A stretch of 64,000 nt of DNA, taken from Stegostoma tigrinum. Its lineage: Eukaryota. A program made the translations under genes and the position numbers. This document shows positions 834-59,830 of the stretch, one piece after another; within the stretch, counting starts at the first letter, position 1; the number at the start of each line of letters is the position of its first letter. Location of the stretch: the NCBI RefSeq assembly GCF_030684315.1, contig NC_081365.1:34313394-34377393 (forward strand). Reading direction: 5' to 3'. The notes under the pieces were generated by a model. The model did no database searches. It saw only the letters and a program-made list of their open reading frames with translations, and was not told where the DNA came from.

Positions 834-1043
834 GAGATAACAAAATGTGGAGCTGGATGAACACAGCAGGCCAAGCAGCATCTCAGGAGCACAAAAGCTG
901 ACGTTTCAGGCCTAGACCCTTCATCAGAGGTCTAGGCCCAAAATGTCAGCTTTTGTGCTCCGGAGATGCTGCTTGGCCTGCTGTGTTCATCCAGCTCCAC
1001 ACTTTGTTACCTCGGATTCTCCAGCAACTGCAGTTCCCATTAT
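834..1043. mobile_element. Penelope-derived fold-back mini-element with hammerhead motif
   Basis: Inverted arms matching the 3' terminus of the PLE at 43127-43256; TSD tatcccaaatagtgag at 821-836 and 1041-1056. Confidence 0.85.
898..929 (-). ncRNA. Minimal hammerhead ribozyme motif
   Basis: CU-CUGAUGA-A-GGGUCUAGGCCU-GAAAC-GUC-AG; 2-bp stem I (CU/AG). Confidence 0.65.
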
Positions 1044-1191
1044 CCCAAATAGTGAGTACCATTTGCAGCAAAGGTTAATGATTTGTGACTGACAAGTTAA
1101 CTCACCCAACACAATGTAAAGTGTGAATCTCAGTATGCTTGCATCTTACAGCCTTCAAAAGTGGTGGCAAAAAATATTTTCAATCATTGTT

Positions 1192-1353
1192 AGAGATAAC
1201 AAGGTGTAGAGCTGGATGAACACAGCAGGCTAGAGCAGGAAAGCTGACGTTTTGGGTCTGGACCCTTTTCTGAAGAGGTGCGTGTGTGCTCATCCAGCTC
1301 TACACCTTGTTATCTCAGATTCTCCAGCATCTGCAGTTCCTACTATCTCTGAA
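1192..1353. mobile_element. Penelope-derived fold-back mini-element (internally deleted)
   Basis: Same arm sequence family; TSD ttc(a/g)atcattgtt at 1179-1191 and 1354-1366. Confidence 0.8.
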
Positions 1354-1415
1354 TTCGATCATTGTTGCTGTGTTATCCATTTTATTAGATCTGACCCAAA
1401 TCAGGATGCTATTGT

Positions 1416-1640
1416 AACAAAATGCGGAGCTGGATGAACACAGCAGGCCAAGCTGCATCTTAGGAGCACAAAAGCTGACGTTTCGGGCCTAGACCCTTCA
1501 TCAGATGATTTTTCTGATGAAGGGTCTAGGCCCGAACCGTCAATTTTTGTGCTCCTAAGATGCTGCTTGGCCTGCTGTGTTCATCCAGCCCCACACTTTG
1601 TTATCTCGGATTCTCCAGCATCTGCAGTTCCCATTATCTC
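1416..1640. mobile_element. Penelope-derived fold-back mini-element with two opposed hammerheads
   Basis: About 90-bp inverted arms meeting at tcatcag-atgattttt-ctgatga; perfect TSD tcaggatgctattgt at 1401-1415 and 1639-1653. Confidence 0.9.
1475..1505 (-). ncRNA. Minimal type I hammerhead ribozyme, intact core
   Basis: Minus strand reads CUGAUGA-A-GGGUC-UA-GGCCC-GAAAC-GUC-AG: all core nucleotides present, stem II, palindromic ACGU stem III, GUC cleavage triplet. Confidence 0.75.
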
Positions 1641-1707
1641 AGGATGCTATTGTCCCTGTGATATACAAAGAATAGCCAATTTAAAGAAAATGTAAACCGT
1701 TACTTAC

Positions 1708-1776
1708 TTGATATTGGTCTTCTGTATTTGGTTGGTTTGCAGGAAGATCTCCATGTTTTCCTTTTACTTTGGTCAG
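1708..1776 (-). CDS. CD247: CD247-like exon 3 (juxtamembrane segment to first ITAM tyrosine)
   Basis: ttacattttgttttcaaag|CTG...CAA|gtaagt; 69 nt, phase 0/0, in frame with exon 2. Encodes LTKVKGKHGDLPANQPNTEDQYQ and ends at Y-x like mammalian zeta exon 3 (…QNQLYN). This favours zeta over FCER1G. Confidence 0.85.
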
Positions 1777-2570: not shown

Positions 2571-2600
2571 GGGGGGGGGGGGGGGGGGGGGGTGGGGGGG
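2571..2600 (+). repeat. Poly-G tract (G22-T-G7)
   Basis: Read directly from the sequence; lies in CD247 intron 2. Confidence 0.95.
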
Positions 2601-3004: not shown

Positions 3005-3108
3005 CCTCAGCTTAAGGTAGAGACCAGTGACTATAATCCCATACACAAAGAGAACTCCATCAAGAATATAACACAACTTAGGGTCATCCAGGTTCATAAC
3101 GTCAGCAT
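3005..3108 (-). CDS. CD247: CD3 zeta chain (CD247)-like, exon 2 (short ectodomain plus transmembrane helix)
   Basis: Exon bounded by tttgccattttgacag|AT and AGG|gtaagt; 104 nt, phase 1 to phase 0. Encodes (x)ADVMNLDDPKLCYILDGVLFVYGIIVTGLYLKLR, closely matching the zeta TM (human [29 protein letters not shown]), with C, D, Y and T at the dimer-interface spacing. Confidence 0.92.
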
Positions 3109-14599: not shown

Positions 14600-17140
14600 T
14601 TACAGAAGCTCAGAAGGAATTGCAGTGCAGGAGGATGCAGCACACTGTGCCTGCACCAGTTCTATTACCCAGTGCCAATCCCTTGCCTTTTCCCCGTATC
14701 CTTGTATGTCATTTCCATCCCAGTAATCGTCCAATGCTCTTCTGAATGTCTCAACTGAACCTATCTCCATTACTTCCAGACAGTGCATTCTACACCCTAA
14801 CTATACACTGTGCAAAAAAGTTTTTTCTCATCACCCTTGCTTCATTCACATATCACCTTCAATGTATGCCCTCTAATTTTTTTTTGTGAGGTTGTCGACT
14901 TACTTGTTGAACTGGTTTGTTTTTGTTCAGACGTTTCACCACCATGCGAGGTTACATCATCAGTGAGGCCTCCGATGAAGCGATGTTATTCTACTCCACT
15001 TGGAATTTATACTGTCCGGCCTGTAATGGTGAGTTGTGTCATTTCCAGTTTTGATCTGTGTGCGTTTGTATGTAGGGCCCAATTCTACATGTTTGTTGAT
15101 TGCATTACCGGTGGAGAACAATGCCTCAAGGAAGTCCTGTACGTGTCTATGTTTGGCTTCGGCTACGATAGTTACGTTGTCCCAGTTAAACTGATGGTCC
15201 TTAACTGAACAATGCGACTATAATAGCCCAAGCCAAACACGCACAGGAATTCCTAGAGGTATGGTTCTCCACACATAATGCGATCAACAAACATACAGAA
15301 TTGGACCCTATATACAAACCCAAACAGAACAAAACCGAAATGACAGTACTCACCATAACGGACCGGACAATATAAATTCCAAGTGGAGTAGAACAACATT
15401 GCTTCATCGCAGACTCCACTGATAATGTTACCCATGGTGACGAAACATCTGAACGAAACAAGCCGGCTCAGTGAGCAAGTCAACAACCTCACCCACAACC
15501 GAAGCTACAAATCTTTGCTAAAACTTTAAATTCTTTTATCAGTGATGACCAGGGACACCTATCCACCCTATACAGACTCCTTATGATTTGTAAAGTCTCT
15601 ATCAAATCTCCCTTCAGCCTTCTTCCTTCTGAACAGAACAGTCCCAACTTCTTCAATTCACCTTCATAACTGAAGTTTTCTATTCCTGCAACCATATTTG
15701 GAAATCACTTCCTCACTCTTTCTAACATATTCACATCTTACCCATATTGTGGACCCCACAACTGCACACAACACTCAAGCTGATGTCTAACAAGTGTCTT
15801 CTACAAATTCAACATCACATCCCTGCTCTTGTACTCTATGTCACTATTAATAAAACTGCCGTCTCTGTATGCTTTATGCACTGCTGTCTCCACCTATCCT
15901 GCTACCTTCAGTGTTCTGTGCAAATATTTACCCAGGTTCCTCTGCTCCTATTTCATATTGTTTTTCAATGTTCTTCTTACCGAAGTGCATCACCTCAGAC
16001 TTCTCCTCATTGAACCTCAGCTGCCAGCTCTCCACTTACTCCACCAACTTATGGAGTTATGGAATTATACAGGATGGAGACAGACCCTTCAGTGCAACTC
16101 ATCCATGACAACGAGATATCGTCAACTGATCTAGTCCCATTTGCCAGCATTTGGCCCATATCCCTCGAAACCCTTCCTATTCATATACCCATCCAGATGG
16201 CTTTTAAATTTTGTAATTGTACAGGACTCCACCACTTCCTCTGGCAGCTCAATGCATACACACACCACCCTCTGCATGAAAAAGTTGTCCCTCAGATCCC
16301 CTTTAAATCACTTTAAACCTATGTTTAACAACATTGTTCCTATAGTAGGGAGACCAGAACTAATTACAGTATTCCAAAACTGACCTCAGCAATGTCCTGT
16401 ATAGCTGCAACTTGATGTCCCAATTCCTATACTCAATGCACTGACCAATGAAGGCAAATGTCGTCTTCACTACCTTATCTACCTGCGCCCCTACTTTCAA
16501 GGAACTATACAACTGCATCCCTAGGTCTCTTTGTTCGGCAACCCTCTTCCCAGAGCCTTACCATTAACTGTATAAATCCTGCCCTGATTTGCCTTACCAA
16601 AATGCAACACATCACATTTATATAAATTAAACTCCATCTGCCGCCCCTCAGCCTGTTTGATCAAGGTTCCATTGTGCTCTTTAATGTCATTTGGAGCACC
16701 ACACCGTCCTCCTCACAGTTTACAATTTTTTTTAAGGTTTTGTGTCATCTACAAACTTTGAAATTGTCCCTTACAAACAAATGTCCAAATTATTGCTATA
16801 TATCAGGAGAAGCAAGGGTCCCACTAGTGACACCTGGAAAATTCGACTCCAATCTTCCTCCAGCCCAGAAGATATCCATTGACCAATACTCTCTGTGTCC
16901 TATCATTCAGCCAATTTTGTATCCAAGTTGCAACTGTCCCTTTTATTCTGTGACCGGCCACTATCCTCATATGCCTGTTGTTTGGCAGTGTACCAAATGC
17001 CTTTTGGAAATTCATGTTTAAAGCATTAACAAAGTTACCTTCATCAACGTTTTCTGTTACTTCTTTGAAAAACTCCAGAAAGTTCAAACATGATTTTCCC
17101 TTTAGACATCCACGCTGACTATTCCGAATCAACTCATCTT
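14600..17140 (-). mobile_element. Cluster of old nested CR1 fragments
   Basis: ORF traces LGLF..E.RRLKGDLIE, GKSCL.FLEFF.EVT, WIQNWL.DR.QRV; interrupted by the Penelope at 14885. Confidence 0.75.
14885..15515. mobile_element. Penelope (Poseidon-like) inverted 3'-end pair inserted in a CR1 relic
   Basis: About 320-bp inverted arms. The + arm encodes a GIY-YIG C-terminal trace IIAQAKHAQEFLEVWFS..AINKHTELDPIY. Hammerhead motifs at about 14928-14964 (-) and 15419-15451 (+). Confidence 0.8.
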
Positions 17141-17515: not shown

Positions 17516-17659
17516 AACTTCCCAGTTCTGAGGAAGGGTCCCCAGACCCGAAACATTAACTCTGCTTTTTCCTTCACAGGCGCTGCCAGACCTGCTGAGC
17601 TTTTCCAGCAACTTTGTTTTTGTTTCTGATTTACAGCATCCACAGTTCTTTTGGTTTTT
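17516..17659 (+). mobile_element. Penelope 3'-terminal monomer (CUGAGGA family)
   Basis: CTGAGGA-A-GGGTC-CCCA-GACCC-GAAAC-ATT at 17528; perfect TSD atttattttcttctc at 17501-17515 and 17660-17674; same terminus as the PLE at 55352. Confidence 0.8.
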
Positions 17660-20752: not shown

Positions 20753-21452
20753 AAATAATAGTGTGGAGTTTGATGAACACAGCAGGCCAGGCAGCATCAG
20801 AGGAGCAGGAAAACTGGCATTTCAGGTCAGGACCCGTCTTCAGAAATGGGGGAGGGGAAGGGGGTTCTGAAATAAATAGAGAGGAGGGGTGGGGCTGGGA
20901 AGGTGGGTGGGATGGTGATAGGTGAGTGCGGGCAGGCAATTGGTCATTGGTCAGTGAGGTGAGAGGAGCTGAGAGGTGGGAGAAAAGGTGGACAGGCCAA
21001 GGAGACAGGGATGAGATGGAGGGTTTGTCATGTGATGAGGCCGTGGGTGGGGAGATTTTGAAACTAGTAAAGTCCACATTGATCTCAATATGGACGTACT
21101 GGTTTCAAAATCTCCCCACCCATGGCCTTATCCCAGGACCAACCCTCCCCCTCATCCCCACCTCCTTTTCTTGTCCATCTTCTCTCCCACCTATCTGCTC
21201 CTCCCACCTCACTGACCAATCCCCACCACTGCCTGCCCGCTCTCACCTATCACCATCCCATCTACCTTCCCTAGCCCCAACCCTCCTCTATTTATTTCAG
21301 AGCTCCCTTCCCCCTCCCCCATTTCTGAAGAAGGGTCCTGACTCGAAATGCCAGCTTTCCTGCTCCTCTGATGCTGCCTGGCCTATTGTGTTCCTCCAGC
21401 TCTACATCATGTTATCTCTGACTCCAGCACCAGCAGTTCTTACTATCTCTGA
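20753..21452. mobile_element. Penelope (Neptune-like) long inverted 3'-UTR pair
   Basis: About 340-bp inverted arms including the ORF end (VDFTSFKISPP, shared with 43478-44299), pyrimidine-rich 3' UTR and degenerate CUGAAGA hammerheads. Confidence 0.85.
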
Positions 21453-36500: not shown

Positions 36501-39500
36501 CCCATTCCTATTTGTGGGAACTTTCTGCATGTAAACTGGCTGCTGATTCTGACAATAACAGCTTTAAAATTCACCCATTCATTGACTGTGAAACAATTCA
36601 GAAAATGTGAAAGGCATTATGTGAAGGCAGATGCTTATTGTGTTATATAACTGTGCATTATTTTAGCAAAGTTATTACAACTTCTTGAAAATAGATTCAT
36701 GATATGTCATGTTATATCAAAACTCTGTGCACTATTCTAACATTGGACTTATGCTGACAATACAAGAAATCTCACCGCCAAAATGTTTTTAAAATGTACG
36801 ACAGAGATAAATGTCAATCTGTCAATATGTCAATCTACTTCGCACTTGTCAGAAACAGAGAGACTTATTGAATTTTGCTTGGTTAGCTAATCTGCATGTT
36901 GAGAAAATTAAAAAGGACATTTAATTCTTAAAGGTTTAATGAACAATATTTTCCATGCTTACGCATTTTTGCATATGAAGTCTACTGCAGTAATGACTAA
37001 GTATTTTTAAACTGTTGATTGAATCATTATATTTCTGGTTACTTCAGCAGATGTCAAATTTGGCAGAAGAGCTATGGGAACCTTGTTAAGATTTTCTAGT
37101 GTTTGTGTAGTTTTGTCGAACACACCATTTTAAGATGTTTTAAAATTAATAGCTGCATTAATCCTTTTGAACAGAAGCACAAATATGCATGCAAGAACAC
37201 TTGATTAGGATGTTTCGCCTTTGTGACGTAGTTGTGGGAAAGGTGCCCTTTTCACTTCTCCATAGCACTATTCTTGTATGCCAACATTTCAGCGTCCTCA
37301 GGAAGAACTAGAAACAGGCGCAAGTGACATAGTGAACAAGACCATCAATGGTGAGATAGTCCTCTGTTCTGCTTTGTAACTAAACATACCTTGATAGTAG
37401 ATGGCACAGCTGTGTATCCATTTATCTGCAGAAGTGCCTGTTGGCAACAGTTAAGGGCAATGTGACTATGTATACATTTGGTGGCATCTTGATGGTCAAT
37501 CAGGCTTTGCTGCGCCAATTGCTCTAGCATGTCTTCCTCCACCTAATGCAAGTATGGTGCTTCTGAATAAACTCATACCATTATAATTATAAATCTTAAC
37601 TCCACGACAATGTAGGAACAGCAATATGTCCAGGTCAAGATGGTGTAGAACATGTGGTGATGTCCCTACAGATTTTCTCCTTTGATATTTTTTGATGCTT
37701 AATGTTGCTGGGAGAGTTGCTGTAGTAGCTCCAGTGGGTAAATAGTGGAGATAACAAAGTGTAGAGCTGGATGAACACAGCAGGCCAAGCAGAATCCTAG
37801 CTGCAATGGTGCTGAAAGGGAGTGGATAATATGGATTGCTGGATTCCAGTACTAATGCACAAAATATCAGAATCCAGTGTAATCTAACTTTGTTAAAGAT
37901 TGTCCACCATTCCAATCCCATCTAAATTTTCATTAAAATGGATTAAGTCTGTCCATATAAATTATATTATCTTCATGATATTGGTACAAAATGGCTAAAC
38001 TAAGCACATTTGTACAGATTTACACAGGGAGCTATGCTTGTTCTACAGTAACTAGGTAGAACGTTATAGATATTGTCTCAAAAGCTGGACTATTATGTTA
38101 AATTGTTGTCTATATGTTAGCTCCATAACAGTAGCCGTAATCGTTTCTCCCTTTGTGTTTCTTTTCTGCAATGTGCATCTTAAAAACTGGTTCAAACAAA
38201 CCAGTGAATGGAAACATTGTGATCTAACAGCTCATTGTTCAAGAGTCAATACAGAGATACTGTAAACATACACCGCGTGTGGAAAGTCAGTCTCATCAGA
38301 TAAGCTACTTCAGCTTTCTGATTAGTAAAATGATCTTGAGAAGAGCATGTACTTACGAAGTCTGGACTGGGGAATCCCTGGAGGAATCCAGAAATTAAAC
38401 AGATGCTTCCTTTCATGTTAAGTCAATCGACACTTTTTTTTCTGCACTCTAATACATGGAAGGAAATCTGCATTTTTCATTTGTCAATGTGAGTACTGTC
38501 ATTGCCGACTTGATCAAAAATTTTCATGTGGTGTGATTAGAAATGATTTGTGCAAGTCAAGCAACATCTAATGCTCAACAAAAGTAAATCATTCAGAGGC
38601 TAATTTACTGTTTTGTGTGGGCTGCTCTACTTTGCTGGTTTTCTGCTGGTAACCGTTCTGGGGACAAGCAACATAAACAGGTCTCTGCTGCTGCTACTAT
38701 CATGCAGGTGTTACAGCATCAGAGGACAGAGATCCCAGTACCACATCTGACACTGACAGTAACTCAACGCAAACTGCACTTGGAGCAACAGTAGCTTTTG
38801 CCACAACAATGAAAGTAATGAAACTGTTTATAACTGTTGGCCTGTTGGGACTCTCTCTAGTCACTGGCATCAGCAACTGACTGTGATAGTTAATTGATGA
38901 TGGGCAAGATGAACATTTATTATGCAATTTTAGTATGTTATCCTGAAATGGACACTTGTCTCTGAAATTCCTAAGAACTGTGCTTACTCGTGCCCTCTTG
39001 CTGATACTGTCAAAGGATGAGAGCCTGGTAGGAAAGCACATAATTAATGTGGTATGTGGGTACATTCACTGCTATGGGAAGAAGCCCTATTAGGATACAG
39101 TATTGTCCAAGTAGCCTTGATCCTCCCCTACCCGCCCCTTTCTCAGCACCTTTAATAAAGTGGCTAATCAGCAAAAATTAAGTTGTGCCTTACTTTGGGG
39201 TTCAGGCTAGGTATAATTCAGCAGGTGTAACAGCATCTGGAGAGAAACAAGAATTAACATTTCAGATTGAAAAGCCGTCAACCTGAAACACCTACATCTC
39301 TTTTCACAGACGCTGCTAAACCTCATGTACATCCAACACTTTCTGCTTTAATTTCAGACCTCCAGACTCACCAGTATTTTGTTTCGGAATAAAAACAAAT
39401 TAATTGCTCACTCAGTCATCACAAAGCAGATGCTGCATTCGCCTACATGGGAGTCACAGCATTTCTTTATACAGATGTTTCTGAGATACGATAATGTGTA

Positions 39501-40155: not shown

Positions 40156-40528
40156 TGATATGATGTGCTCAATGCAGTGTGCGTCTGGTCTGTAGCATCT
40201 AATACCTGCAGAAAGCCAGCTGTTGGCAAAGCCTACAGTGCCATGAAGTGTGTGATCAGGCACAAATGGCATTAGCCACAGCATTGATGCATCTGTGTGT
40301 TGGTGAATGTGAGATCCTGCACATGTCCCCAGGCAGTCCTTGGAACCAGCTGTTAGCAGAATAATTTAGTGCAGTTGTCACGTTGATGGCCACTCACCCC
40401 TTTCAGGGGTGTTTCAGGTTGACTGAAAGCTGGCTTTCTGCAGGTATTAGATGCTACAGACAAGACACACACTGCATTGAGCGCATCATATCATAACATT
40501 ACAGACATCTTCAACAGAAAAAGATTCT
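40156..40528. repeat. Inverted plus direct duplications of the Harbinger relic
   Basis: 40156-40402 is the reverse complement of 41861-42108; 40428-40528 is a direct copy of 42043-42143. Confidence 0.9.
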
Positions 40529-41779: not shown

Positions 41780-42620
41780 TATAGTCTTGTCACTGACAGA
41801 GGGTGTCCCCAGGAGACTAGCACAGAATGACGCAGGCTGCTGGGCTGGGATTTGTCACTTGAAGGGGTGAGTGGCCATCAACGTGACAACTGCACTAAAT
41901 TATCCTGCTAACAGCTGGTTCCAAGGACTGCCTGGGAACATGTGCAGGATCTCATATTCACCAACACACAGATGTTTCAATGCTGTGGCTAATGCCATTT
42001 GTGCCTGATCACACACTTCATGGCACTGTAGGCTTTGCCAACAGCTGGCTTTCTGCAGGTATTAGATGCTACAGACCGGACACACACTGCATTGAGCGCA
42101 TCATGTCATAACATTACAGACATCTTCAACAGAAAAGGATTCTATTCCAGCAACGTACAAGTCATCTGTGATGTTTGTGCCAGGTATCCAGAGGGGTGCT
42201 ATGATGCTTATATCCTTCATTGACTAAATGTCTTGAAGGATGGTTACTGGGAGACAAGGGCTACCTACAAAGCAACCATGGCTGGTTTCTTCATTACACA
42301 ACCTCCTTGACTGAGCCTGAGAGTGTAGATACAATGCAACCCATTCTTCAAACCAAGCTAATGGTGAAGGGGATGACAGTCTTGATGAAGATGAGGTTTC
42401 AGTGCTTGGATCAGTTCAACGGGCCTTGCATCTAGGCCAGACTGATTGTGCTGGTAATCCTAGCACATTAAGCTCTATATAACTGGAGCAGATAAAGAAG
42501 GGAAATGATGGATGATGAAGAGCTGGGAGAGCAGTAGCAGCACTCTTCCAAGGAGGAAGATGAGCAGGAAGAACATCACCTTCACCATGATAGAGGACTG
42601 CAGCGTCATAAGCAACAAGC
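41780..42620 (+). pseudogene. Harbinger/PIF (HARBI1-like) DDE transposase relic
   Basis: Frameshifted traces VTTALNY..SWFQG, GFLQVLDATDRTH, NRKGFYS.NVQVICD, ARYPEGCYDAYIL, GWLLGDKGY and KMRFQCLD, followed by an acidic tail. Confidence 0.85.
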
Positions 42621-43126
42621 CACACAGGACTGAATAAAAGTGAACATCTTCAAGCATTTGACAGGTTTCCAGTAAAAGGGATGCTCCCACACTGAACTTG
42701 CACTTGCAATGAAGTTCAAGCTGTGCCACCTACATGCTCTCATAATCATTTCTTTTTGGTTCTCCTCCCACTCTGTGTATGAAGAAGGCTGGAACACGTG
42801 ACCTGCTGCATGGTTGGGCTTTAATAATGGCACAGGTATCAGGAATCCTAGCAGATTCCAGTAGTGGCAGGTCCTTCTGCCTCTTGAGAAGGGGACAATA
42901 CTGCGAGTGAAACACCATAGAGGTGTGGAGCATAGCTAATGAAGTGAGCTGTGGAGAATATTGTGTGAAAACTCGCTGGCGTTCTATAAATAACACCATC
43001 AGTGAAACTCTCCTAAACTGCCACATAGCTGATTACTCTTGGACTTTAGTCCACAGTGGGTACCTCTTAAGAGTTTGACAGCTCTGGTGCTCCACTCTCA
43101 AATGATCACGTGCAGGTCTCTTTACA

Positions 43127-44530
43127 GAGATAATGGGAACTGCAGATGCTGGAGAATTCCAAGATAATAAAATGTGAGGCTGGATGAACACAGCAGGCCA
43201 AGCAGCATCTCAGGAGCACAAAAGCTGACGTTTTGGGCCGAGACCCTTCATCAGAGAGGGGGATGGGGAGAGGGAACTGGAATAAATAGGGAGAGAGGGG
43301 AGGCGGACCGAAGATGGAGAGTAAAGAAGATAGGTGGAGAGAGTATAGGTGGGGAGGTAGGGAGGGGATAGGTCAGTCCAGGGAAGACAGACAGGTCAAG
43401 GAGGTGGGATGAGGTTAGTAGGTAGATGGGGGTGCGGCTTGGGGTGGGAGGAAGGGATGGGTGAGAGGAAGAACCGGTTAGGGAGGCAGAGACAGGTTGG
43501 ACTGGTTTTGGGATGCAGTGGGTGGGGGGGAAGAGCTGGGCTGGTTGTGTGGTGCAGTGGGGGGAGGGGACGAACTGGGCTGGTTTAGGGATGCAGTAGG
43601 GGAAGGGGAGATTTTGAAACTGGTGAAGTCCACATTGATACTATTAGGCTGCAGGGTTCCCAGGCGGAATATGAGTTGCTGTTCCTGCAACCTTCGGGTG
43701 GCATCATTGTGGCAGTGCAGGAGGCCCATGATGGACATGTCATCTAGAGAATGGGAGGGGGAGTGGAAATGGTTTGCGACTGGGAGGTGCAGTTGTTTGT
43801 TGCGAACTGAGCGGAGGTGTTCTGCAAAGCGGTCTCCAAGCCTCCGCTTGGTTTCCCCAATGTAGAGGAAGCCACACCGGGTACAGTGGATGCAGTGTAC
43901 CACATTGGCAGATGTGCAGGTGAACCTCTGCTTAATGTGGAATGTCATCTTGGGGCCTGGGATAGGGGTGAGGGAGGAGGTGTGGGGGCAAGTGTAGCAT
44001 TTCCTGCGGTTGCAGGGGAAGGTGCCGGGTGTGGTGGGGTTGGAGGGCAGTGTGGAGCTAACAAGGGAGTCACGGAGAGAGTGGTCTCTGTGGAAGGCAG
44101 ACAGGGGTGGGGATGGAAAAATGTCTTGGGTGGTGGGGTCGGATTGTAAATGGCGAAAGTGTCGGAGGATGATGCGTTGTATCCGGAGGTTGGTAGGGTG
44201 GTGTGTGAGAACGAGGGGGATCCTCTTAGGGCGGTTGTGGGGCGGGGGGGGGGCGGGGTGTGAGGGATGTGTTGCGGGAAATGCGGGAGACGCGGTCAAG
44301 GGCGTTCTCGATCACTGTGGGGGGAAAGTTGCGGTCCTTGAAGAACATGGACATCTGGGATGTGCGGGAGTGGAATGTCTTATCGTGGGAGCAGATGCGG
44401 CGGAGGCGGAGGAATTGGGAATAGGGGATGGAATTTTTGCAGGAGGGTGGGTGGGAGGAGGTGTATTCTAGGTAGCTGTCGGAGTCGGTGGGCTTGAAAT
44501 GGACATCAGTTACAAGCTGGTTGCCTGAGA
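43127..44530 (-). mobile_element. Penelope-like retroelement (Neptune-type), 5'-truncated: RT thumb plus GIY-YIG endonuclease
   Basis: TDVHFKPTDSDSYLEYTSSHP..CKNSIPYSQFLRLRRICS; CNRRKCYTC linker; NVVHCIHCTRCGFLYIGETKRRLGDRFAEH. Hammerhead at about 43226-43256; TSD caggtctctttaca at 43113-43126 and 44540-44553. Confidence 0.95.
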
Positions 44531-45754
44531 TCTTTACAACAGGTCTCTTTACAACAGTCTTTTTCTGCTGATGATCATTTTGCTTCTCATTAGAAGCCAA
44601 TCCAGAGCATCCAATCCAGGACATGACCTATTCTCATCTTGAATTTGAATAACTCCAAAGGGAACAAATTAACTTCTTAACACAAATGCCTTCTGCAGGG
44701 GAAGATGTGAAAGTGGCTATGAACACTGAGTATTGATGTCCATGTGTCAGACGTTATCGAGTCTAATACACTGTCTCCCATTTCTCACCTTTGTTTTAAC
44801 TCAGGCTCAGAAAATCCTGAAAATGTGTGCATGTCTTGCACAATCTTGTGACAATCTTTTTTCAAATCTCCCCCTTTAAATATTCAAAGCAATGGCCTGC
44901 CTGTTGTGAGAGAGCCAAGCACACACATATTGAAATACAAATGAATGGAGCCATTTTCTGAATGAGTTGCCATTTTCACGTATCATAACTTTCCTCATGA
45001 ATCTAAAACCTCATTTCCACAATATTAGAGTCCCCTAATCAGTGTTCATGAAGCACTGAACAGATTGTGCCAAATAATGTTTCAGCTCATTTGAACAATC
45101 ACCTATAAATATTGCTGTTGCTATTCCCTGACTATACAGTAGACCCAAGATCAAGCTTTGGTCAGCAAGTCCGAACTAAATTACTTGATGGTGCCTGCAT
45201 TTTCAGACACATATATTTCTCTGATCTTATCTTGATTTCCTTTAATTGCAAAGTTTGATATTCAAGCTCTGCATTTGTGGTTCAGTAGATTTTGTGAAAA
45301 GATTATTCATTTCGGTAAAATCCCTATAATAATTTAAATCTGTAAATTGGGGATAATGTCAAATTTGGGCAGTAGTGTAAAATAGACAATATTGAATCAG
45401 TAGTCCATCATTTAGCCAAACTCCTCTGGGCCTGGAGGTCGGAAGGGAACATAATTTGGTGGGACAGTGGAGGACCAGAGCCCTGCCACGTTTCCACCTT
45501 TGTCAGGGTGAGCCATTTGAAGGTGGGTGCCTCAGTCTGCAGTAATCTGTGCACCTTCAAGGGACTTGCCAAAGTGCAGCATGGAGGCTGCTCACAGCCT
45601 GTCCTGGTTCCCCTGTCTCCATGACTGCCACCACAAACAACATTTCAATTTTCTCTTGATGGCTCTCCATCTTGGGGAGTCTGATAGATTGTCATACTGA
45701 CAGCAGGCACAGCTTCCCCTGTGGTGCTGCTGGCTGTCCGGTGGGTTATAGGAT

Positions 45755-47655: not shown

Positions 47656-49869
47656 CACAGATTGGGCAGGAGAAGCAGCTTGGATATCAAAGGAGTAAGA
47701 CATTGAGGATTACCACCATCTCAGTAACAATGTCTATGATAGTAACATAACCTGCATCTGGTGCTAAAGTGCAATAAGCTACACTTTATTTAAAACAACA
47801 GCCTCTTCTTGTGACACTACCTTCTGGTTATCCTTGACCACACTAGACAAAGCAGGGTCTGTAGATCCCTACCAAGAAAGAGGTTAGTGGCAGCAAATCT
47901 ACCAGCCGGATCCCACACGGTGGTGTGCTGGTGTGAATTCATGTTACAACACCAGCCTCTGAATTTATTGGAAGCACTTGGCAATCAGGTCACACTCATC
48001 CTGGTCTAATATGAGTGGAGAACTCAGCAGAGCCCAATCAGCTGCTTGACCGCTAGAAGATCCAATGGGCCTCTATATCATGACAAGGCATCGGTGTCTC
48101 TTCTTCGATCTCTTCTGAACTTGGATTTAGTCCAAAAATGAAAAGATACTACCCAATATCTTTGCCGATGTTTCCTTCCTTTGGCATCAGTATTGCACTA
48201 GTCCAAAATTACTTTCATTGGCTTTTCATATTGCTCTTCTCAAGGCCAATTAGGGATAGGCAAGAAATGCCAACGTTGCCAACAACACACACCTTACATG
48301 CATAACTAACCAAACAAAGACAGCCATGACCACGAAGTCGGACTTTAACCTTGAAAAAACATTCTAAATCTGATGATCTCTTTAAGCTGCAGATGCCCAA
48401 TTTAAGTGTAGCCTGTTAACAATAAGCATGCAATAAATCCAGCATTCAAACACTCAATTCTCAAAGATCTCAGTTTTTCTACGTATTATCTACACACTTT
48501 CAAATTCTTCTTTATATCAATCACTTCAACCATGCTTTTGGCTATCCCCCCTGTCATCTTCTTGTGTCTGGTCATTTTTATCTTTTTGCCTTCAAAGCAA
48601 AAGGCATGCAAATCATTTTTGTTGTGTGAACAGAAAATATTCGTCATGTAATATACTCTGGTAAATTCGCATTAGTCATTTTATTTGAAATAGGATCATT
48701 TGAAACAATTTCTCATAGCAAATTGATTGTGAAAAAATTAAATTAAAATTGCTTACATATAATTGTTTACATGCTTAGTTAAGAATACATGTATAAACAT
48801 ATTTAATGTAGGTTTAGGATATAATTATCACAATACTTAATGCAAATTTGAAATATATAGTTTTCCTAAAATTCAACACGTTAGTTTTATATCCTTATTT
48901 GTAATGTGGTTAACAGCATAGTATACATTTGTTCAGACTTAGGACTACGGAAACAAAATTTCTGTTCCGAATTTGAGTCAAAAGACTGGCACGAATTGTA
49001 GGTGAAATATATGTAAGATGTTAATCATGAAGGTTATTTTGTTATCAGGGAGAAACTGTCTTTTAAAAATTATATTGTGCTGCTAAAACACACAGTGGTT
49101 TATGCATTTTAGTGACATCAGAGAGTTTGGATACAAAGTGTAGAAATAAAAAGTAAATATTGGAAATATAACGATTTCATTACACTTAAGTTTCCGCCGC
49201 AAAATATCACAAATAATGAGCAGATTTTCTTTATATAACAAAAACTCTTAAGCTGTACTTTGTATGCTTCTGCATATTGTTACTTCAAAAGGTTACGAAC
49301 AAATGTTTGCAATTAATTCCCTTTAGAGCTATTTTATAGCTGCTGATTTTTGATACAATTTGCAAATACTGTGCAAAAACATCACAAACTTGAACAATCG
49401 CAAGAGACAAATTTAGAAAAAGATGATGTTTAAGTTTAGTTTTGGCTTCTGAAATCCTCTAATTTCAGATTGAATAAAGGAATGTAGAATAAGGAAATTC
49501 AGAGAAATAAATAATTTATTTGTAAAATAAATCGTAACATACTTGATCGGATAGCATTAAAGCAAAACTTAGTTAGTTAATATTGTCATTCTGAATCTGC
49601 TTTTTTATTCCTGAGTTACTCCGTAAATATATATATCATATATATGACTATATATAAATATCGCTAGAAAATAAATTGATAATGTTACTTTATTACAAAT
49701 ATATTCAGTGCTTGTATAAGATTGAAATATTATGACTTTTAGAACTAGTTCACATTATCTACTTGCATTGTTTCTAATGCTTCCTGTTACAAACATGTTT
49801 ATAGACAAACAATTCATCATTAACTATCTTATCTAGTATTTCGATACCTGACTAACCGGTCTACTAGAA

Positions 49870-50103
49870 ACACACAAAAATGGATATTGCTGGAGGAACT
49901 CAGAAGTTCTGGCAGCATCTGTGGACAGAAAACGCAATTAGGTTTTTGAGTCCAGTAACTCTTCTCCAGATGAATCTGAAGAGGATTCATTAGAATTAAA
50001 ATGTTAACTCTGTTTTCTCTCCACTGATACTGCCAGACCTGCTAGGTTTCTTCATCAATGTCTGTTCTTGTGATTTTCAGATCTCCAGTATCTGCGGTTG
50101 TTT
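49870..50103. mobile_element. Old Penelope fold-back mini-element
   Basis: Diverged inverted arms meeting at ctccaga-tgaa-tctgaaga; similar old copies at about 39222-39385 and 62325-62490. Confidence 0.65.
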
Positions 50104-50580
50104 CTGTGATCAATCTGGCTATCTGGCTGCTTTATGATCAAATTAACTGACATTACTGGTCATTTAGTGCCTTACATTTGTTGCAAGTAGCTTTTTCTCA
50201 GTTAAAAACTAATGCAATGTGAATGTGACATTGCAGCATTGTTGGAAATATCAAAGGTTAAATCAATGCTTCAAGCATTAAAGGTAAAAAGCAGGTCTGT
50301 GAAATTGTGGAGATTCGGCTTTCTCCAGATGAACCAATTACTCTTTTCGTATTTCAGATCGTGATTGATTTTCAGTATTTCCTCAAAATTTCTGTTAGTT
50401 TAAAGCTTTAAAGCATAGTTGTATTGGTCCTATGCTGTCATGTTTTGTTATTTAATCAACTTGTAATTGTTCTGATAGGTATAAATAGATTGTAAAACAA
50501 ACACAATATTTCAAACATCATTGCTCTGTCTTCAATCATGTACATAGAATACAGGTAATACCTGCGTAAGTGCTTTTAAA

Positions 50581-50797
50581 GGGATAACGGGAACTGCAGA
50601 TGCTGGAGAATCCAAGATAACAAAGTGTGGAGCTGGATGAACACTGCAGGCCAAGCAGCATCTTAGGAGCACAAAAGCTGACGTTTCGGGCCTATACACT
50701 TTCTTCTGATGAATGGTCTTGGCCCAAAACGTCAGCTTTTGTGCTCCTAAGATGCTGCTTGGCCTGCTGTGTTCATCCAGCTCCACACTTTATTATC
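50581..50797. mobile_element. Penelope fold-back mini-element
   Basis: Inverted arms; TSD taagtgcttt(t)aaa at 50567-50580 and 50798-50810. Confidence 0.85.
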
Positions 50798-51964
50798 TAA
50801 GTGCTTTAAATCCTGGTTATGGCAATGTTGTAAGAGCAAAAAGTCAAATAAGCTATAACAACAACATGCATCTGGTTCAAAAATTGTGACTGAACATTGA
50901 ATTCAAAGTAATTCATCAGGATGGTTTAAAATTTGTGGGCACATTGTGTTAACCATTATGGAAACTGACAACAATTTTGCACCACAATCCAAAACATAAC
51001 CAGCACAAAGTATGCCATAGTTTAAGAATACTATAACTTAATAGCATTTTTGTTTTGGCACATCATAACTTCTGAAATGTGGTGTAACATAGATACTGGC
51101 AGAAAATTATGTCTGCAGGTGGTGTGTGAAAGCAAGGAATTGTGGTTGTAACAGCGAGTCTTCTAATACTCAACATAAGGCAAATCAAAAGTTGCTTCAT
51201 TGATATGTTTGCTTTCACTTGTTATATTTTATGCAACCACAGATTTTGAATAATTATTAATCACTTCTTTTGTTTTTGGTTTTCTAAAGACTATACTGTA
51301 ATCAAAATTTCTCTGTGTTATAGTAAATTAAAATTAGACTGACTGATATCTTTTGGGTTCAGACTGTTTAGCTATCTATTGCTTCCAATGCTTCCACAAT
51401 TGTACAAGCAGGAAAATCTGTTTAATCCTATATATTGAACAACATCTGTTCATAAAGTAGCTTCTTGCATTGTGATTCAGTTATTCAGTTTATTTCCTCC
51501 TCTGTAATTTCTAGAAAGAAAAGTTTTCTGAAATGTTTTGTAAGTTTCTGGAGGTCTACTTATATACAATGGTTTACATTTCATTTTATTATGATGCATC
51601 AGAGACCAGTGAGACCCTGTAAGTTCATTTATTTGGGTTACATGACTAAAATTAATACACAACTTAAACCAGTACTTCCAATATTCAACTCATAAAAGGT
51701 AACAACTTACATTCATTGCAAAAAAAAAGCCTTTAAGATATCCTGTAGGATTCACAACTTTTGGAAAAAAAAATTTCTAAACTTTAGAACTGCAGCATGA
51801 AATGAATTACTGCACTTCTATCAAAGAAGCATTTTTGCAACAAGTACTTTTCCATCAAATAAAACTTTTTAAAAAACACATTTAACACCTATGTGTGTGC
51901 CTTTGAAGAGTAATTAAATGCTCTACTAAGTGTTAAATCCTATTGCAATGTTTTAATAAATACA

Positions 51965-55351: not shown

Positions 55352-56145
55352 TGGAAAAACCATAAGAACTGTGGATGCTGTAAATCAGGAACAAAAACAA
55401 AGTTGTTGGAAAAACTCAGCAGGTCTGGCAGCATCTGTGAAGGAGAAAACAGAGTCAACATTTCGGGTTCTGAGGAAGGGTCATGGAAGAGGGATTGTTC
55501 CACATAACGTACAAAGAGGCAGGCATAGCTTGGGCCCATGTGGGTATCCACGGCCAACCCCTTTGTCTGTAGGAAATGGGAGGAATTGAAAGGGAAGTTG
55601 TTGAGGGTGAGGACGAATTCAGCGAGGTGGATGAGGGTGTCAGTGGAGGGGGACTAGTCAGGCCTGTGGGACAGGAAGAAGCAGAGGTCCTTTAGGCCAT
55701 CTGCATGGGGAATGCAGGTGTATGGGGACTGGATGTCCATGGTGAAAATGAGATGTTGTGGATTGTGGAATTGGAAGTTCTGGAGGAGGTGGAGGGCGTG
55801 GGTGGTGTCACGGATGTAGGTAGGGACTTCCCGGGGAGAAAATGAAATCAGGATAGGTGGAGATAAGTTCAGTGGGGCAGGAGCAGGCAGAGACAATGCG
55901 TCGACCAGGGAAGTCAGGTTTGTGGATTTTGGGAAGGAGATAGAAGTGGCTGGTGTGTGGTTGGGGAACGATGAGGCTGGAGACTGTGGGTGGGAGGTCA
56001 CCTGAAGTAATGAGGTTGTGGATGGTTTGGGAGATGATGGTTTGGTGGTCGGGGGGGTGGGGTCATGATCAAGGGGGTGGTGGGAGGAGGTGTTGGAGAG
56101 TTGGCGCCTGGCCTCAGCATGTAGAGGTCAGTGCGCCATACTACA
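55352..56145 (-). mobile_element. Penelope (Neptune-type) RT fragment fused to its 3' terminus
   Basis: TYIRDTTHALHLLQNFQF…IFTMDIQS.YTCIPHADGL and HMGPSYACLFV.YVEQSLF, joined directly to the hammerhead-bearing end. Confidence 0.85.
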
Positions 56146-56470
56146 CACAATTTTTCTCATTCTCCACATTCTGAAGAATAACCATGGCCCTTGGCAATAT
56201 TCAAACTCTCATAAATATATATTTATAGATCATTAGAAATGGTAAATGGAACATGTGGACATTTCCTGGGTAGCAAAGAATTTAGCATGTGATTTCTTGG
56301 AACTCAAAAGCCACAAGAGAACTGGAGATTGTCTGCTGTTTACAAATGTCAATCAGTTTTCTGGAGAGCACAAGCCAAAATTTTTGAGAGAGAGATAGAA
56401 GTCGGAATTTATTACATTAGTTGTTCAGCAAACAGACTTTGAAAACACCCTAAGGAGATGTGCTGTTTGT

Positions 56471-57270
56471 CGATGTTGGTGTATTCACTGAGCTGGGAGG
56501 TTTGATAGCAGATGTTTTATCCCCTTACTAGGTGATATCATCAATGCTGTGGAGCCTCCATTGAAACACCATTTCCTTGTGCTGGTTTGAATTTACATGG
56601 TCTGGTTTTTGCTGCTTTCAGTAGGTGCCCATTCCAGTTGTGCGTTGTAATGGTCGGTATATCGGGTCGAATTCAATGTGCTTGTTGATGGAGTCTGTGG
56701 ATGAATGCCAAGCCTCCAAGAATTCCCCAGCTGTCCTCTGTTTGGCTTATCCAATGTTAGTAGTGTTGTCCCAGCTGAAAGAGTAGTTTTTCTCATCTGT
56801 GTGTGTTGAAACTAAGGACATCGTTTAGTTGCTAGCTGGTGTTTGTGGATTTGGGTTGCTAGTTGTCTGCCTAATTGTCCCACATAGTGTTTTGTGCAGT
56901 CTCCACATTGTATCTTGTCAACTACATTTGTCCTGTCCACAGTATCTGTTGGGTCTTTAACCCTGGTCAGTTGCTATCTCAGTGTGGCTGCCTGTTTGTG
57001 TGCTGTCATGATTTCTAGTGGTCTGAGTAGTCTGGCAGTCAGTTCTGAGGTGTTTTTAAAAATGGTTTGGTGGCTATTGTTTCAGGTTTAAATTCAATAG
57101 AAATATAAATTCAAACCAGCACAAGACAACAATGCTTCACAGGAGACTGCGCAGCACTGAGGATGTCACCTAGTAGGGGTAGGAAACGTCTGCTATCAAA
57201 GCTCCCAGCTCAGCGAACACGCCAACATCTACAAACAGCATCCGAGCTACAATCTTCACTCAAACCCTGA
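56471..57270 (-). mobile_element. Penelope (Poseidon-like) GIY-YIG fragment with inverted terminal copy
   Basis: Minus-strand trace NVV.KIQCGDC.KHYVGQ.GR.LAT.I..H…EFLEAWHS..SINKHIEFDPIY; inverted arm at about 57105-57270; TSD agatg(t/a)gctgtttgt at 56456-56470 and 57271-57285. Confidence 0.85.
57153..57194 (+). ncRNA. Minimal hammerhead motif (Poseidon-like family)
   Basis: AGCA-CUGAGGA-U-GUCACC-UAGUA-GGGGUAG-GAAAC-GUC-UGCU; 4-bp stem I, decayed stem II. Confidence 0.55.
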
Positions 57271-57879
57271 AGATGAGCTGTTTGTTGCTTAGCAACAGCC
57301 CCTGGACTGAGGTGCTGGATGTTTTTCCAACACATAACCTAGATGTGGCAGCTGCTGGAGAGGTTTGCAAGGAAAGAATCTCTCAATGAAGCATTTGTGA
57401 ATCCCAAAATTTCAAACATCAGTGTTCCAAGCTGTTTCCCAGCTGAATCTGAAGTCTAGTCTGGAGATCTTTAATTGGTCTGCGAACGCCAGAAATTGGA
57501 CTGGAATCAAAAGGAACTGTACAAATTCAACCCATTCCATTGTGTGCACGCGAACTTTGAACTACAGAGAAGTTTTTCTGCCAATTCCTTTCTTGCCCAA
57601 TAGTACCTCTGCAGAGTTGTGACATCTTGTCCTGTCTCTGTATGAATGATTGTGAATTTTAGATGCAGGGAAATATACTTTAATCCAGATAATGGATTTG
57701 CTTCTTACAAGAATACATTATGCCTTTAGGAAATGTTATTTTTGTGTATTGAAGCAACCTGATAAAAGTCTCTTTTGTTCTAACTGTAGTAAAAAGAAGC
57801 AAGTTGACTATTTTGGCAAATAAGTGAGACACTTACACTTTTACTGTAGCTTTTGGAATATGGGTGCTTAATTTCCAGC

Positions 57880-58430
57880 CCACTCCTGGAAATATTGTGT
57901 AGATTTCTGATCACCACACAACTAGAAGGATCTGAATGCTTTGAAGAGGGAGGAGAAAATGTTGACCAGGATGTTGCCTGGTATGGGCGATTTTAGCTAT
58001 GAAGAAAGATTGAATCGACTGGTTTTGTTTTCACTGGAATGCAGGAAGTTGAGGGGCAACCTGCTAGAAGTTTGTAAGGTTGTAAATGGCCTGGACAGAG
58101 TGGAAAGTATGAGGCTTTTTCCCAGGGAGGAGAAGTCCATTACTAAGGGACACAGGTTCAAAGTGCAAGGAGGGAAGTTTAAAAGAGATGTGCAAGGCAC
58201 GTTTTTCACACAAAGAGTGGTGAGTCACCTAGGAATGCACTGCCAGAGGAGGTGGTGGAAGCAGACATAATAGTAGCATTCAAGAAACACTGGATAAATA
58301 CTTGAATAGGAAGGAATAGAGCAATACGAACCTTGTAAGTGAAGACAGTTTTAGTTTGGAAGGGCAAAATGTGTCAATCCAGGCTTGGAGGTCCAAAGGG
58401 GCCACGTTTCTGTGCTGTATTGTTATTTTG
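57880..58430 (+). mobile_element. CR1 3' fragment
   Basis: TRMLPGM..FSYEERL.RL.LFSLE.RKLRG…TKGHRFKV. Confidence 0.85.
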
Positions 58431-58596
58431 TTCTTTGTACCTCTAATCAGGGTCACGATACAACTCAATTAAACAATAAAAGAAGTAAAAAGAAGTAAAA
58501 AATCACTTCAAACCCAGAAGTCCTTGGTGCTAAAAATTGCTTTAATCTTAGAATTACCTTCTGATTTATGGTGAAAATGAACAATGAGAAAAAGGG

Positions 58597-58760
58597 GTAA
58601 TAGGAACTGCAGATGCTGGAGAATCCAAGATAACAAGTTGTGGAGCTGGATGAACAAAGCAGGCCCTTCATCAAGGGTCTAGGCCCAAAACATCAGCTTT
58701 TGTGCTCCTAAGATGCTGCTTGGCCTGTTGTGTTCATCCAGCTCCACACCTTGTTATCTA
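58597..58760. mobile_element. Penelope fold-back mini-element
   Basis: Inverted arms; TSD aatgaga(a/g)aaaggg at 58583-58596 and 58762-58775. Confidence 0.8.
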
Positions 58761-59625
58761 TAATGAGAGAAAGGGACTGCCCATTCAAGGCACAGCCATT
58801 ACAAGTCTACTGTAATCATTCAAAGATCATAATTAATTCCGTTAAATTTTTGCAAACATCTTTTGCGGTTCCATAACTGAGAGTGAATGGTTAAGGAAAT
58901 GTCAATTAGTCCTCAGCTTTTCAATTTATTTCTGCCATTAAACCCACAATCATCCCAGACCCAGAATGACCTGGGCAATAGTGAGTCAGTTGAGAAAGCA
59001 TGGCAAGGTCAGAAAAATGAGATTCTCAATGTCAAGAAAATACTCTGATTTTGACAAGGAGATGAGATGAGAATCTCGTCATTGAGCAGCAAGAGGCCTA
59101 TTTCCATGAATTTACATTTCAATAGTGCCTGATCTTGGCTTATTATTAATGTAATTTCCATTCTCTCACAGCACAGAGAAACCAGATGGTAATATTTGCT
59201 GACATTGTAGTCAGAGTGGGTTCCTGGTTGTTCTAATCTGCCTCTTTCTCCTTCGGCCCTCCATTTTAGATAGCAGTCTCTAACATATCAGAATGCTCTC
59301 CCCAGGCAGCAACAGTTTGTGCTCCCATTGTATAAAGATTGATGTTGCATATGCACCAGCCTCACCACAGCAACAGGGGACATCTCTGATTCATTTAGAA
59401 TACAATTGTCTACTTCAGTACTCCTCTTTGGCATGCACCAACAACTTGTCATCCTCCTTGAGCAACCCACACGGTGTTGACTCTGGTGTACCCATGTCAC
59501 AGCTAGCGATTGTCCAGATCAATCCCAGCTTTACATGCATCTTGCAATACTTCTGACTCCCCAAACATTAATACTAGACTATGGAACACTGATTTGAACT
59601 GATTCAACCCCCGCTAATCCAGACT

Positions 59626-59830
59626 CAGAGATAGCAAGAACTGCCGATGCTGGAGTCAGAGACAACACAGTGTGGAGCTGGAGGAACACAGCAGGCCAGG
59701 CAGCATCAGAGGAGCAGGAAAGTTGACAGAAAATTTTCTGAAGAAGGGTCCTGACCCACAACGTCAACTTTCCTGTTCCTCTGATTCTGCCTGGCCTGCG
59801 GTGTTCCTCCAGCTCCACACTGTGTTGTTT
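59626..59830. mobile_element. Penelope fold-back mini-element (CUGAAGA family)
   Basis: Inverted arms; TSD ctaatccag(g)act at 59614-59625 and 59831-59843. Confidence 0.8.

What the first reader, a model, noticed from the sequence alone, without database searches (positions are those of the whole stretch)
834..59830. Stereotyped fold-back insertion: TSD - short arm - inverted long arm - ~30-36 nt one-sided tail - TSD
Seen in at least 10 independent insertions (834, 1192, 1416, 14885, 20753, 49870, 50581, 56471, 58597, 59626) from both Neptune-like and Poseidon-like families. One arm always lacks the last ~30-36 nt (e.g. tail 1605-1640 and about 57232-57268). TSDs are 12-16 bp where readable and often overlap the element end by 2-4 nt (tatc at 1041, tc at 1639). 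Established: PLEs are known to form inverted pseudo-LTRs with a short tail. Inference: two priming events at fixed RNA positions about 35 nt apart, one on each target strand, generate MITE-like palindromes by retrotransposition. These would be misannotated as SINEs or DNA MITEs.
Basis: partly seen in the sequence, partly recalled or inferred. Interest (0 to 1): 0.7.

Follow-up and report, generated by a model that had tools for sequence, protein, structure and literature searches.

The report
Two-ended Penelope retrotransposon insertion scars
These mirror-image inserts are real, one-off insertions of Penelope-like jumping genes in a layout already described for this class; they were likely made by copying the element's RNA from both cut ends of the target DNA, starting at two fixed points about 33 bases apart.

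Summary
All ten fold-backs exist. Seven have a detectable target-site duplication (TSD). Three are absent from a related species, whose empty sites carry one TSD copy.

In 1.09 Mb of evenly spaced stretches from this genome, 48 of 49 pairs with both ends in the two end classes had one tailed and one tail-less arm. In 53 such pairs, 43 had a TSD (median 14 bp; control 0.3%) and all 53 central junctions differed. So there is no palindromic master or MITE. The same rule covers near-full-length copies with intact RT plus GIY-YIG ORFs.

The layout (inverted truncated copy, 30-40 bp one-sided tail, TSD) is published for Penelope-like elements, and two RT start sites with both-strand extension were shown in vitro in 2024. 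Beyond that, the data argue against fold-back self-priming (the tail-less arm reaches further in 22 pairs versus 9). They favour both arms coming from one source RNA, and arm 5' ends pile up 30 nt below a TATA-like box.

This scan noted the same thing before, in this and other genomes. Side lead: a 6.3-kb fold-back of about 20 copies of a 315-nt ribozyme-bearing unit hints at circular templates.

The parts
821..1056 (.). Neptune-type fold-back: TSD 821-836, tail-less arm 835-929 (-), tailed arm 929-1044 (+), TSD 1041-1056
   Evidence: empty site 820|1041 in organism B, runs X5 and X6
1179..1366 (.). Older Neptune-type fold-back: TSD 1179-1191/1354-1366 (13 nt, 1 mismatch), tail-less arm 1193-~1275 (-), tailed arm 1285-1351 (+)
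   Evidence: also present in organism B
1401..1653 (.). Neptune-type fold-back: TSD 1401-1415, tail-less arm 1416-1505 (-), 8-nt filler, tailed arm 1514-1640 (+), TSD 1639-1653
   Evidence: empty site with one TSD in organism B, runs X5 and X7
1477..1504 (-). Minimal hammerhead-like core (CTGATGA - stem II - GAAAC GTC). The + strand copy at 1514-1541 has one core base changed.
   Evidence: read; fits the min-HHR description in PMC4209133 (passages); Rfam gave no hammerhead hit; activity untested
14886..15525 (.). Poseidon-like fold-back with GIY-YIG C-terminal remnant in the centre; arms pair 14886-15492, one-sided tail about 15493-15525; no readable TSD
20753..21452 (.). Neptune-type fold-back of a third subfamily, arms about 310-350 nt, tail on the + arm; TSD below threshold
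43126..44531 (-). Plain 5'-truncated copy of the same Neptune-type family, tailed end, 14-bp TSD, GIY-YIG coding remnant, no inverted arm
49866..50100 (.). Old diverged fold-back of another PLE-end family; no readable TSD
50567..50810 (.). Neptune-type fold-back, tailed arm 50580-50701 (-), tail-less arm 50704-50798 (+), TSD about 13 nt
56456..57285 (.). Poseidon-like fold-back: TSD 56456-56470/57271-57285 (15 nt, 1 mismatch); tail-less arm on - reaches into the GIY-YIG remnant; tailed arm 57103-57268 (+)
   Evidence: also present in organism B
58583..58775 (.). Neptune-type fold-back, tailed arm 58598-58665 (-), tail-less arm 58670-58759 (+), TSD 58583-58596/58762-58775
   Evidence: empty site 58590|58770 in organism B, runs X5 and X7
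59614..59839 (.). Neptune-type fold-back (third subfamily), tailed arm 59625-59728 (-), tail-less arm 59735-~59830 (+), TSD 9 nt exact
   Evidence: also present in organism B

Best explanation
Each palindrome is a single, independent insertion of a Penelope-like retrotransposon between two copies of a ~14-bp target sequence, likely built by reverse transcription primed from both cut target strands at two fixed RNA sites 31-34 nt apart. Steps: (1) the GIY-YIG endonuclease makes a staggered cut of about 13-16 nt (inferred from the TSDs). (2) One target end primes at the downstream site and gives the tailed arm; the other primes at the upstream site and gives the tail-less arm (inferred; the two sites are shown as end peaks here and in vitro elsewhere). 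(3) Both cDNAs run towards the RNA 5' end, mostly on RNA from the same source copy and likely the same molecule. Many stop about 128 nt in, 30 nt below a conserved TATTTA, likely the transcript start (inferred). (4) The two cDNA ends are joined by microhomology or a few filler bases, giving a unique centre each time (uniqueness shown, repair route inferred). Short palindromes are the low end of a size continuum that reaches full-length elements; they are dead ends, not a self-amplifying MITE.
For: Bimodal 3' ends: 112 tailed, 109 tail-less and 24 other among 245 terminal arms in 1.09 Mb. One of each in 48 of 49 classifiable pairs after removing one duplicated locus (p~2e-13 against free pairing). 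The single tailed-tailed pair has no TSD (L123). TSD in 43 of 53 versus 1 of 300 shuffles. Empty sites with one TSD for 3 of 3 insertions absent from organism B. All 53 junctions are distinct. The tail-less arm reaches >=8 nt further 5' in 22 pairs, the tailed arm in 9, and 22 are within 8 nt; a cDNA folding back on itself cannot give the first class. Unpaired copies with a TSD end at either site (11 of 47 tailed, 13 of 51 tail-less), so each site can prime alone. The two arms share rare variants (28 of 8044 sites) more than distance-matched arms (19 of 15945, p=0.0003) or nearest other arms (26 of 15789, p=0.006). In L160, L205 and L207 both arms carry the same deletion junction, seen in no other locus examined. 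Long copies L208, L210, L211, L212 and L214 follow the same rule with 12-15 bp TSDs; L208 and L212 hold intact 1085 and 1074 aa RT+GIY-YIG frames. 75 of 242 arm 5' ends fall in 11 nt (13 expected), 30 nt below a TATTTA conserved at 93-99%. PMC11167929 (main text read): the PAc protein cleaves and extends both strands, starts at two internal sites bracketing the tail, and is predicted to be a dimer.
Against: PMC11167929 saw no difference in start site between top and bottom strand, so strict one-of-each pairing is not reproduced in vitro. Arms disagree at 94 of 1316 common polymorphic sites, and a few pairs disagree at 4-8 (L042, L075, L079): some may come from two different RNAs. Shared rare variants could also come from later gene conversion between arms. 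Sequence cannot tell one RNA molecule from two transcripts of one locus. 12 of 78 pairs have an end outside both classes. Upstream boundaries of copies that continue into the ORF are scattered (about -800 to +64; only L151 and L146 lie at -126/-129), so the -128 start is not exclusive. Only 2 of 13 Poseidon-like pairs reach the TSD threshold, with 2 more just under it. A possible second tailed-tailed pair (L100, no TSD) turned up later.
Confidence: 0.7

Rival explanations
1. Two separate RNA molecules held by a dimeric particle are each copied from one target end, with an asymmetry that forces different start sites.
For: Predicted PAc dimer (PMC11167929). The arms overlap the same RNA segment, so one RNA would need strand displacement. 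Some arm pairs disagree at several subfamily sites.
Against: Excess of shared rare variants and locus-specific junctions in both arms need at least the same source locus. A symmetric dimer with two RNAs gives no ready reason for 48 of 49 one-of-each pairs.
Confidence: 0.17
2. One cDNA is made from the tailed end, folds back or self-primes and copies itself. Self-priming was proposed for Adineta Penelopes; endonuclease resolution of the intermediate was proposed as the origin of the tail.
For: Self-priming is discussed in PMC3846280 and resolution in PMC8557442 (passages). It would explain arm similarity. Some junctions overlap by 1-13 nt.
Against: The tail-less arm extends further than the tailed arm in 22 of 53 pairs, once by 774 nt (L057). 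Tail-less copies occur alone with their own TSD (13 of 51).
Confidence: 0.08
3. A palindromic master element (MITE or SINE) amplifies as a unit.
For: Lengths cluster at about 125-240 bp and many arms end near -128.
Against: 53 of 53 distinct junctions, a length continuum from 83 bp to over 6 kb, unequal ends, variable 9-20 bp TSDs, and arms identical to the 3' end of an RT/GIY-YIG element.
Confidence: 0.02
4. Two independent insertions landed head to head, or the inversion arose by later rearrangement.
For: The family is dense: 245 terminal arms in 1.09 Mb.
Against: One TSD brackets both arms, and orthologous empty sites lack both arms at once.
Confidence: 0.03

Closest known systems
EN+ Penelope-like insertions with adjacent inverted pLTR, optional tail and TSD (Adineta Pen2a/Pen2, PMC3846280; general scheme PMC8557442; D. 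virilis Penelope 34-37 bp repeat, PMC2377424)
   Same: Inverted 5'-truncated copy head to head with the sense copy, a 30-40 bp extension at one end only, and a TSD around the whole unit.
   Different: TSDs here are longer (median 14 versus 8-10 bp reported in Adineta). Most units are ORF-less stubs of 125-240 bp. The tail is close to obligately one-sided, not merely optional.
Poseidon_Ac (PAc) in vitro TPRT, PMC11167929
   Same: Two internal RT start sites that bracket the tail, both target strands cut and extended, AT-rich targets (TSD GC 35% versus 42% background).
   Different: No strand-specific use of the two sites was seen in vitro, and the inverted product was not explained. PAc is Poseidon clade; the main family here is Neptune/Nematis type.
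LINE-1 twin priming (recalled, not read here)
   Same: Both target strands prime cDNA, giving a 5' inversion inside one TSD.
   Different: L1 arms are adjacent non-overlapping RNA segments and the second site is variable. Here the arms overlap the same segment and both sites are fixed.
Metazoan non-LTR retrozymes (PMC7229834) and non-autonomous multicopy Chlamys elements (PMC8557442)
   Same: Applies to the side finding only: 280-450 nt hammerhead-bearing units in head-to-tail arrays.
   Different: The units here are deletion derivatives of the PLE itself, carry a minimal rather than canonical hammerhead, and sit in both arms of a TSD-flanked fold-back.

Membership tests
EN+ Penelope-like elements | Single ORF with RT followed by C-terminal GIY-YIG endonuclease | tested here: met
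   L208 1085 aa and L212 1074 aa: RVT_1 E 2-4e-5 and GIY-YIG E 0.002-0.004, in that order, both below Pfam cut-offs; DKG and YIDD motifs visible
EN+ Penelope-like elements | CCHH motif with two Cys between GIY and YIG | tested here: met
   VVYCIHCTRCGFLYIG followed by two His; definition from PMC8557442
EN+ Penelope-like elements | pLTR/partial tandem, inverted copy, 30-40 bp tail, TSD | tested here: met
EN+ Penelope-like elements | Minimal hammerhead motif in the pLTR | tested here: inconclusive
   Core bases conserved across arms; no Rfam hammerhead hit; stem I covariation weak; activity not testable
Neptune/Nematis clades | CX2-5CxxC zinc finger in the RT-EN linker | tested here: met
   CNRRKCYTC; absent from Penelope/Poseidon per PMC8557442
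Neptune/Nematis clades | RT phylogenetic placement (Neptune versus Nematis) | not tested
   No reference set on hand; no tree built
Penelope/Poseidon clade (14885, 56471) | GIY-YIG without linker zinc finger; RT placement | tested here: inconclusive
   Broken frames resemble a PLE endonuclease end (motif recognition recalled); a 39-aa piece had no Pfam hit
MITE / non-autonomous DNA transposon | Copies share one internal sequence and junction, equal terminal inverted repeats, fixed short TSD | tested here: not met
   53 of 53 unique junctions, unequal ends, TSD 9-20 bp
SINE | Pol III RNA-derived head and fixed 5' end | not tested
   No tRNA or Pol III scan was run; arms align wholly to the PLE 3' end
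Non-LTR retrozymes (side finding) | Tandem 150-450 bp units with a hammerhead | tested here: met
   Units of 283-450 nt holding the hammerhead-like core; core is minimal, not canonical
Non-LTR retrozymes (side finding) | Expressed as circular RNA | not testable with these tools
   No raw RNA reads of this species were offered

The most novel reading that the evidence does not exclude
One Penelope particle loads two reverse transcriptases on a single RNA at two fixed sites and copies it twice, once from each target end. When that RNA is a small ribozyme-made circle, both enzymes roll round it and insert mirror-image multimers, as at L200 (about 4 inverted plus 16 direct copies of a 315-nt unit inside one 14-bp TSD). 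That would be direct genomic evidence that PLEs mobilise retrozyme-like circles and can spawn them.
Probability: 0.25. Interest if true: 0.7.

Novelty: new member of a known kind. Interest (0 to 1): 0.36.

Why it matters
How Penelope-like elements make their inverted repeats and one-sided tail is named as an open question in PMC8557442 and left partly open in PMC11167929. The counts here turn it into sharp predictions for the existing in vitro system: one-of-each start sites, about 14-nt stagger, same-source arms, and a leading tail-less arm. At about 70 Neptune-type fold-backs per Mb (77 in 1.09 Mb; extrapolation gives roughly 2e5 genome-wide), they also matter for repeat annotation and as presence/absence markers between species. 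The layout itself is not new.

Tried and rejected
Rfam scan of 700-1800: only sub-threshold miRNA hairpin matches, no hammerhead; the hairpin matches are taken as generic.

Hammerhead stem I covariation: only 4 of 105 arms show the compensating pair, so it is not claimed.

Arm ends at the predicted ribozyme cut: 1 of 242 exactly there, and 15 within 0-4 nt downstream versus 6 expected (post hoc p=0.0015; boundaries uncertain by about 2 nt). A weak hint only.

Upstream limits of ORF-containing copies as a test of a transcript start at -128: scattered, not decisive.

First microhomology method was noisy because arm mismatches cut it short; 35 of 53 pairs were callable and 27 had a TSD. It was redone with a whole-pipeline simulation.

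Unit variants in the L200 array: 0-2 differences per unit, three of them recurring in non-adjacent units. This does not separate rolling-circle copying from a multimeric RNA or later expansion.

Hidden micro-arms beside 'solo' copies: 3 of 51 and 5 of 47 versus 2.75% background, so most solos are truly single-armed.

No RNA holder was listed for the stretch, so nothing is said on expression. The Poseidon-like remnant at 56.8-57.0 kb was not scanned against Pfam because its frames are broken. MER6 as a misannotated relative (recalled lead): PMC5753468 lists it as Mariner with no PLE link, so it was dropped. Empty sites were not tested for 14885, 20753, 49870 or 50581.
Full report
OBSERVATION. 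Self-BLAST of the window finds inverted arm pairs at 834-1013, 1193-1316, 1415-1603, 14886-15492, 20762-21406, 50615-50798, 56461-57240, 58628-58759 and 59650-59839. The 49870 copy is older and self-aligns only by local alignment. In each, one arm runs on by a tail of roughly 30-40 nt. TSDs scoring >=9 flank 7 of the 10; 1 of 300 shuffled flank pairs reaches that score. No TSD is readable at 14885, 20753 or 49870.

IDENTITY. The arms are the 3' end of a retroelement that is abundant in this 3.2-Gb genome (window = G000:C14:34313394-34377393). Long copies L208 and L212 hold intact 1085 and 1074 aa frames with RVT_1 then GIY-YIG hits, both below Pfam cut-offs. They carry a DKG motif, a CX4CxxC linker finger and a CCHH endonuclease motif. 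By the definitions in PMC8557442 (passages) this is a Neptune/Nematis-type Penelope-like element; no tree was built. The 14885 and 56471 copies carry broken frames resembling a PLE endonuclease end; 'Poseidon-like' is my recalled reading. A minimal hammerhead-like core lies 98-125 nt from the end, as described for PLE pLTRs in PMC4209133 (passages). Rfam does not detect it.

CENSUS. I took 109 evenly spaced 10-kb stretches from large contigs (1.09 Mb; 11 requested stretches did not exist). Only the Neptune-type families were counted. Of 245 terminal arms, 112 end at the tailed site, 109 at the tail-less site and 24 elsewhere. Both sites follow a TTATC-like motif, repeated 31-34 nt apart. Of 78 head-to-head pairs, 49 are one-of-each, 1 is tailed-tailed, 0 are tail-less on both sides, and 28 have an uncalled or off-class end. 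L076 and L124 are one duplicated locus, leaving 48 of 49. The tailed-tailed pair has no TSD. With the 7 window copies added, and two edge loci plus the duplicate dropped, 43 of 53 pairs have a TSD (9-20 nt, median 14; 32 of 43 at 13-16) and the tail is 25-51 nt, median 37. All 53 junctions differ and lengths run from 83 to 3229 bp. Long copies L208, L210, L211, L212 and L214 follow the same rule with 12-15 bp TSDs. In 30 loci of the 56471 family, opposite ends lie mostly 26-51 nt short (two at 63 and 68), but only 2 of 13 scored pairs reach the TSD threshold.

EMPTY SITES. Contigs of a related species (organism B; runs X5, X6, X7 from three studies) join 820 to 1041 (X5, X6). They join 1415 to the flank beyond the second TSD, with a nearby 11-nt deletion (X5, X7), and 58590 to 58770 (X5, X7). 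Each join leaves exactly one TSD copy and lacks both arms.

MECHANISM. (a) Against fold-back of one cDNA: the tail-less arm reaches >=8 nt further 5' in 22 pairs, the tailed arm in 9, and 22 are within 8 nt. Unpaired copies with TSDs end at either site (11 of 47 and 13 of 51). (b) For one source: in 56 pairs the arms share rare non-CpG variants at 28 of 8044 sites, versus 19 of 15945 for distance-matched arms and 26 of 15789 for nearest other arms. L034 shares four variants seen in no other copy. In L160, L205 and L207 both arms carry the same deletion junction. Against: 94 of 1316 common polymorphic sites disagree, a few pairs at 4-8 sites, and gene conversion is not excluded. (c) Why stubs are uniform: 75 of 242 arm 5' ends fall at -132 to -122 (13 expected from flanking density; 10 in the 40 nt further up). 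This is 30 nt below a TATTTA conserved across subfamilies. I found the pile-up; the TATA lead came from earlier scan notes and I then checked it. Run-off at a transcript start is the likely reading. A stall at the C-rich tract is not excluded, and ORF-containing copies have scattered upstream limits. (d) Target microhomology is modest: overlaps of >=2 nt in 19 of 43 tailed ends (24% in simulation) and 13 of 43 tail-less ends (15%). Shown: two end classes, one-of-each pairing, TSDs, empty sites, unique junctions. Inferred: staggered cut, priming from both strands, one RNA, strand displacement, transcript start.

LITERATURE. PMC8557442 (passages) states that an inverted 5'-truncated copy and a 30-40 bp tail often at one end are known PLE features, and calls their origin undefined. 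PMC3846280 (passages) shows the same unit with 8-10 bp TSDs and one empty site, and proposes self-priming. PMC2377424 (passages) describes the 34-37 bp repeat and inverted termini. PMC11167929 (abstract, main text and start of Methods; supplements not seen, and Figs S1-S2 may bear on strand-specific starts) shows two RT start sites bracketing the tail and extension of both strands, with no strand difference. PMC7229834 (passages) names PLEs as candidate movers of retrozymes. Searches for a published two-ended model or MITE-like shark PLE stubs (listings only) showed none, but the library lacks most subscription journals and Repbase. L1 twin priming is recalled. Earlier notes of this scan report the same architecture and similar readings in at least 10 genomes and repeatedly in this one; they are not independent support.

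SIDE LEAD. Searching with the sequence beyond the tail gave multimeric insertions. L200 is 6270 bp inside a perfect 14-bp TSD, tail-less on the left and tailed on the right. It has about 4 inverted and 16 direct copies of a 315-nt unit (element -209 to +110) that holds the hammerhead-like core and both start sites; units differ by 0-2 bases. The same unit occurs at L201 and L202. Other units of 283-450 nt occur at L160, L203-L207. A circular RNA template would explain this, but a long multimeric transcript, repeated template jumps or later expansion also would. No earlier scan note held all my search words for it. Multicopy non-autonomous PLEs are already mentioned in PMC8557442.

VERDICT. Real and correctly read, but a known PLE insertion signature. 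Its value is the quantitative constraint on an open mechanism. Interest 0.36.

Noticed in passing
L200:2028-8297 (G000:C11:34441027-34447296); also L201, L202: 6.3-kb fold-back made of about 4 inverted plus 16 direct near-identical copies of a 315-nt PLE-derived, hammerhead-bearing unit inside one perfect 14-bp TSD, with one-of-each ends. The same unit occurs at two other loci.
   Followed up: partly
L160, L203, L204, L205, L206, L207: Further PLE-derived multimer units of 283-450 nt, each with its own deletion junction; in L160, L205 and L207 both arms share the junction.
   Followed up: partly
L208:3803-7060 and L212:4314-7538: Intact 1085 and 1074 aa Neptune/Nematis-type ORFs with a Thr/Ala/Asp/Pro-rich repeat insert before the RT; the family was recently active.
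   Followed up: partly
window 40156-40528 and 41862-42143: Non-PLE inverted duplication (247 nt, 96%) plus a 101-nt direct duplication (40428-40528 / 42043-42143). Not repeated in the 1.09-Mb sample; it looks like a local template-switch rearrangement.
   Followed up: partly
window 43126-44531 (-): Plain 5'-truncated Neptune-type copy with 14-bp TSD and a partial extra copy of the target sequence at its 5' junction.
   Followed up: partly
window 17526-17648, 37749-37796, 55366-55449, 55485-56144, 60257-60362: Further single-armed or internal fragments of the same families.
   Followed up: no
L105:~1229-1273: Two tailed ends face each other tail to tail across about 40 bp of host DNA.
   Followed up: no
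window 56456-56470: The TSD matches this copy's own tail over about 10 nt, including a base where most family members differ; possible homology-aided priming or later conversion.
   Followed up: no
L076:9562-9644 and L124:8871-8956: The same insertion with the same flanks at two loci: a duplicated region, not two insertions.
   Followed up: yes
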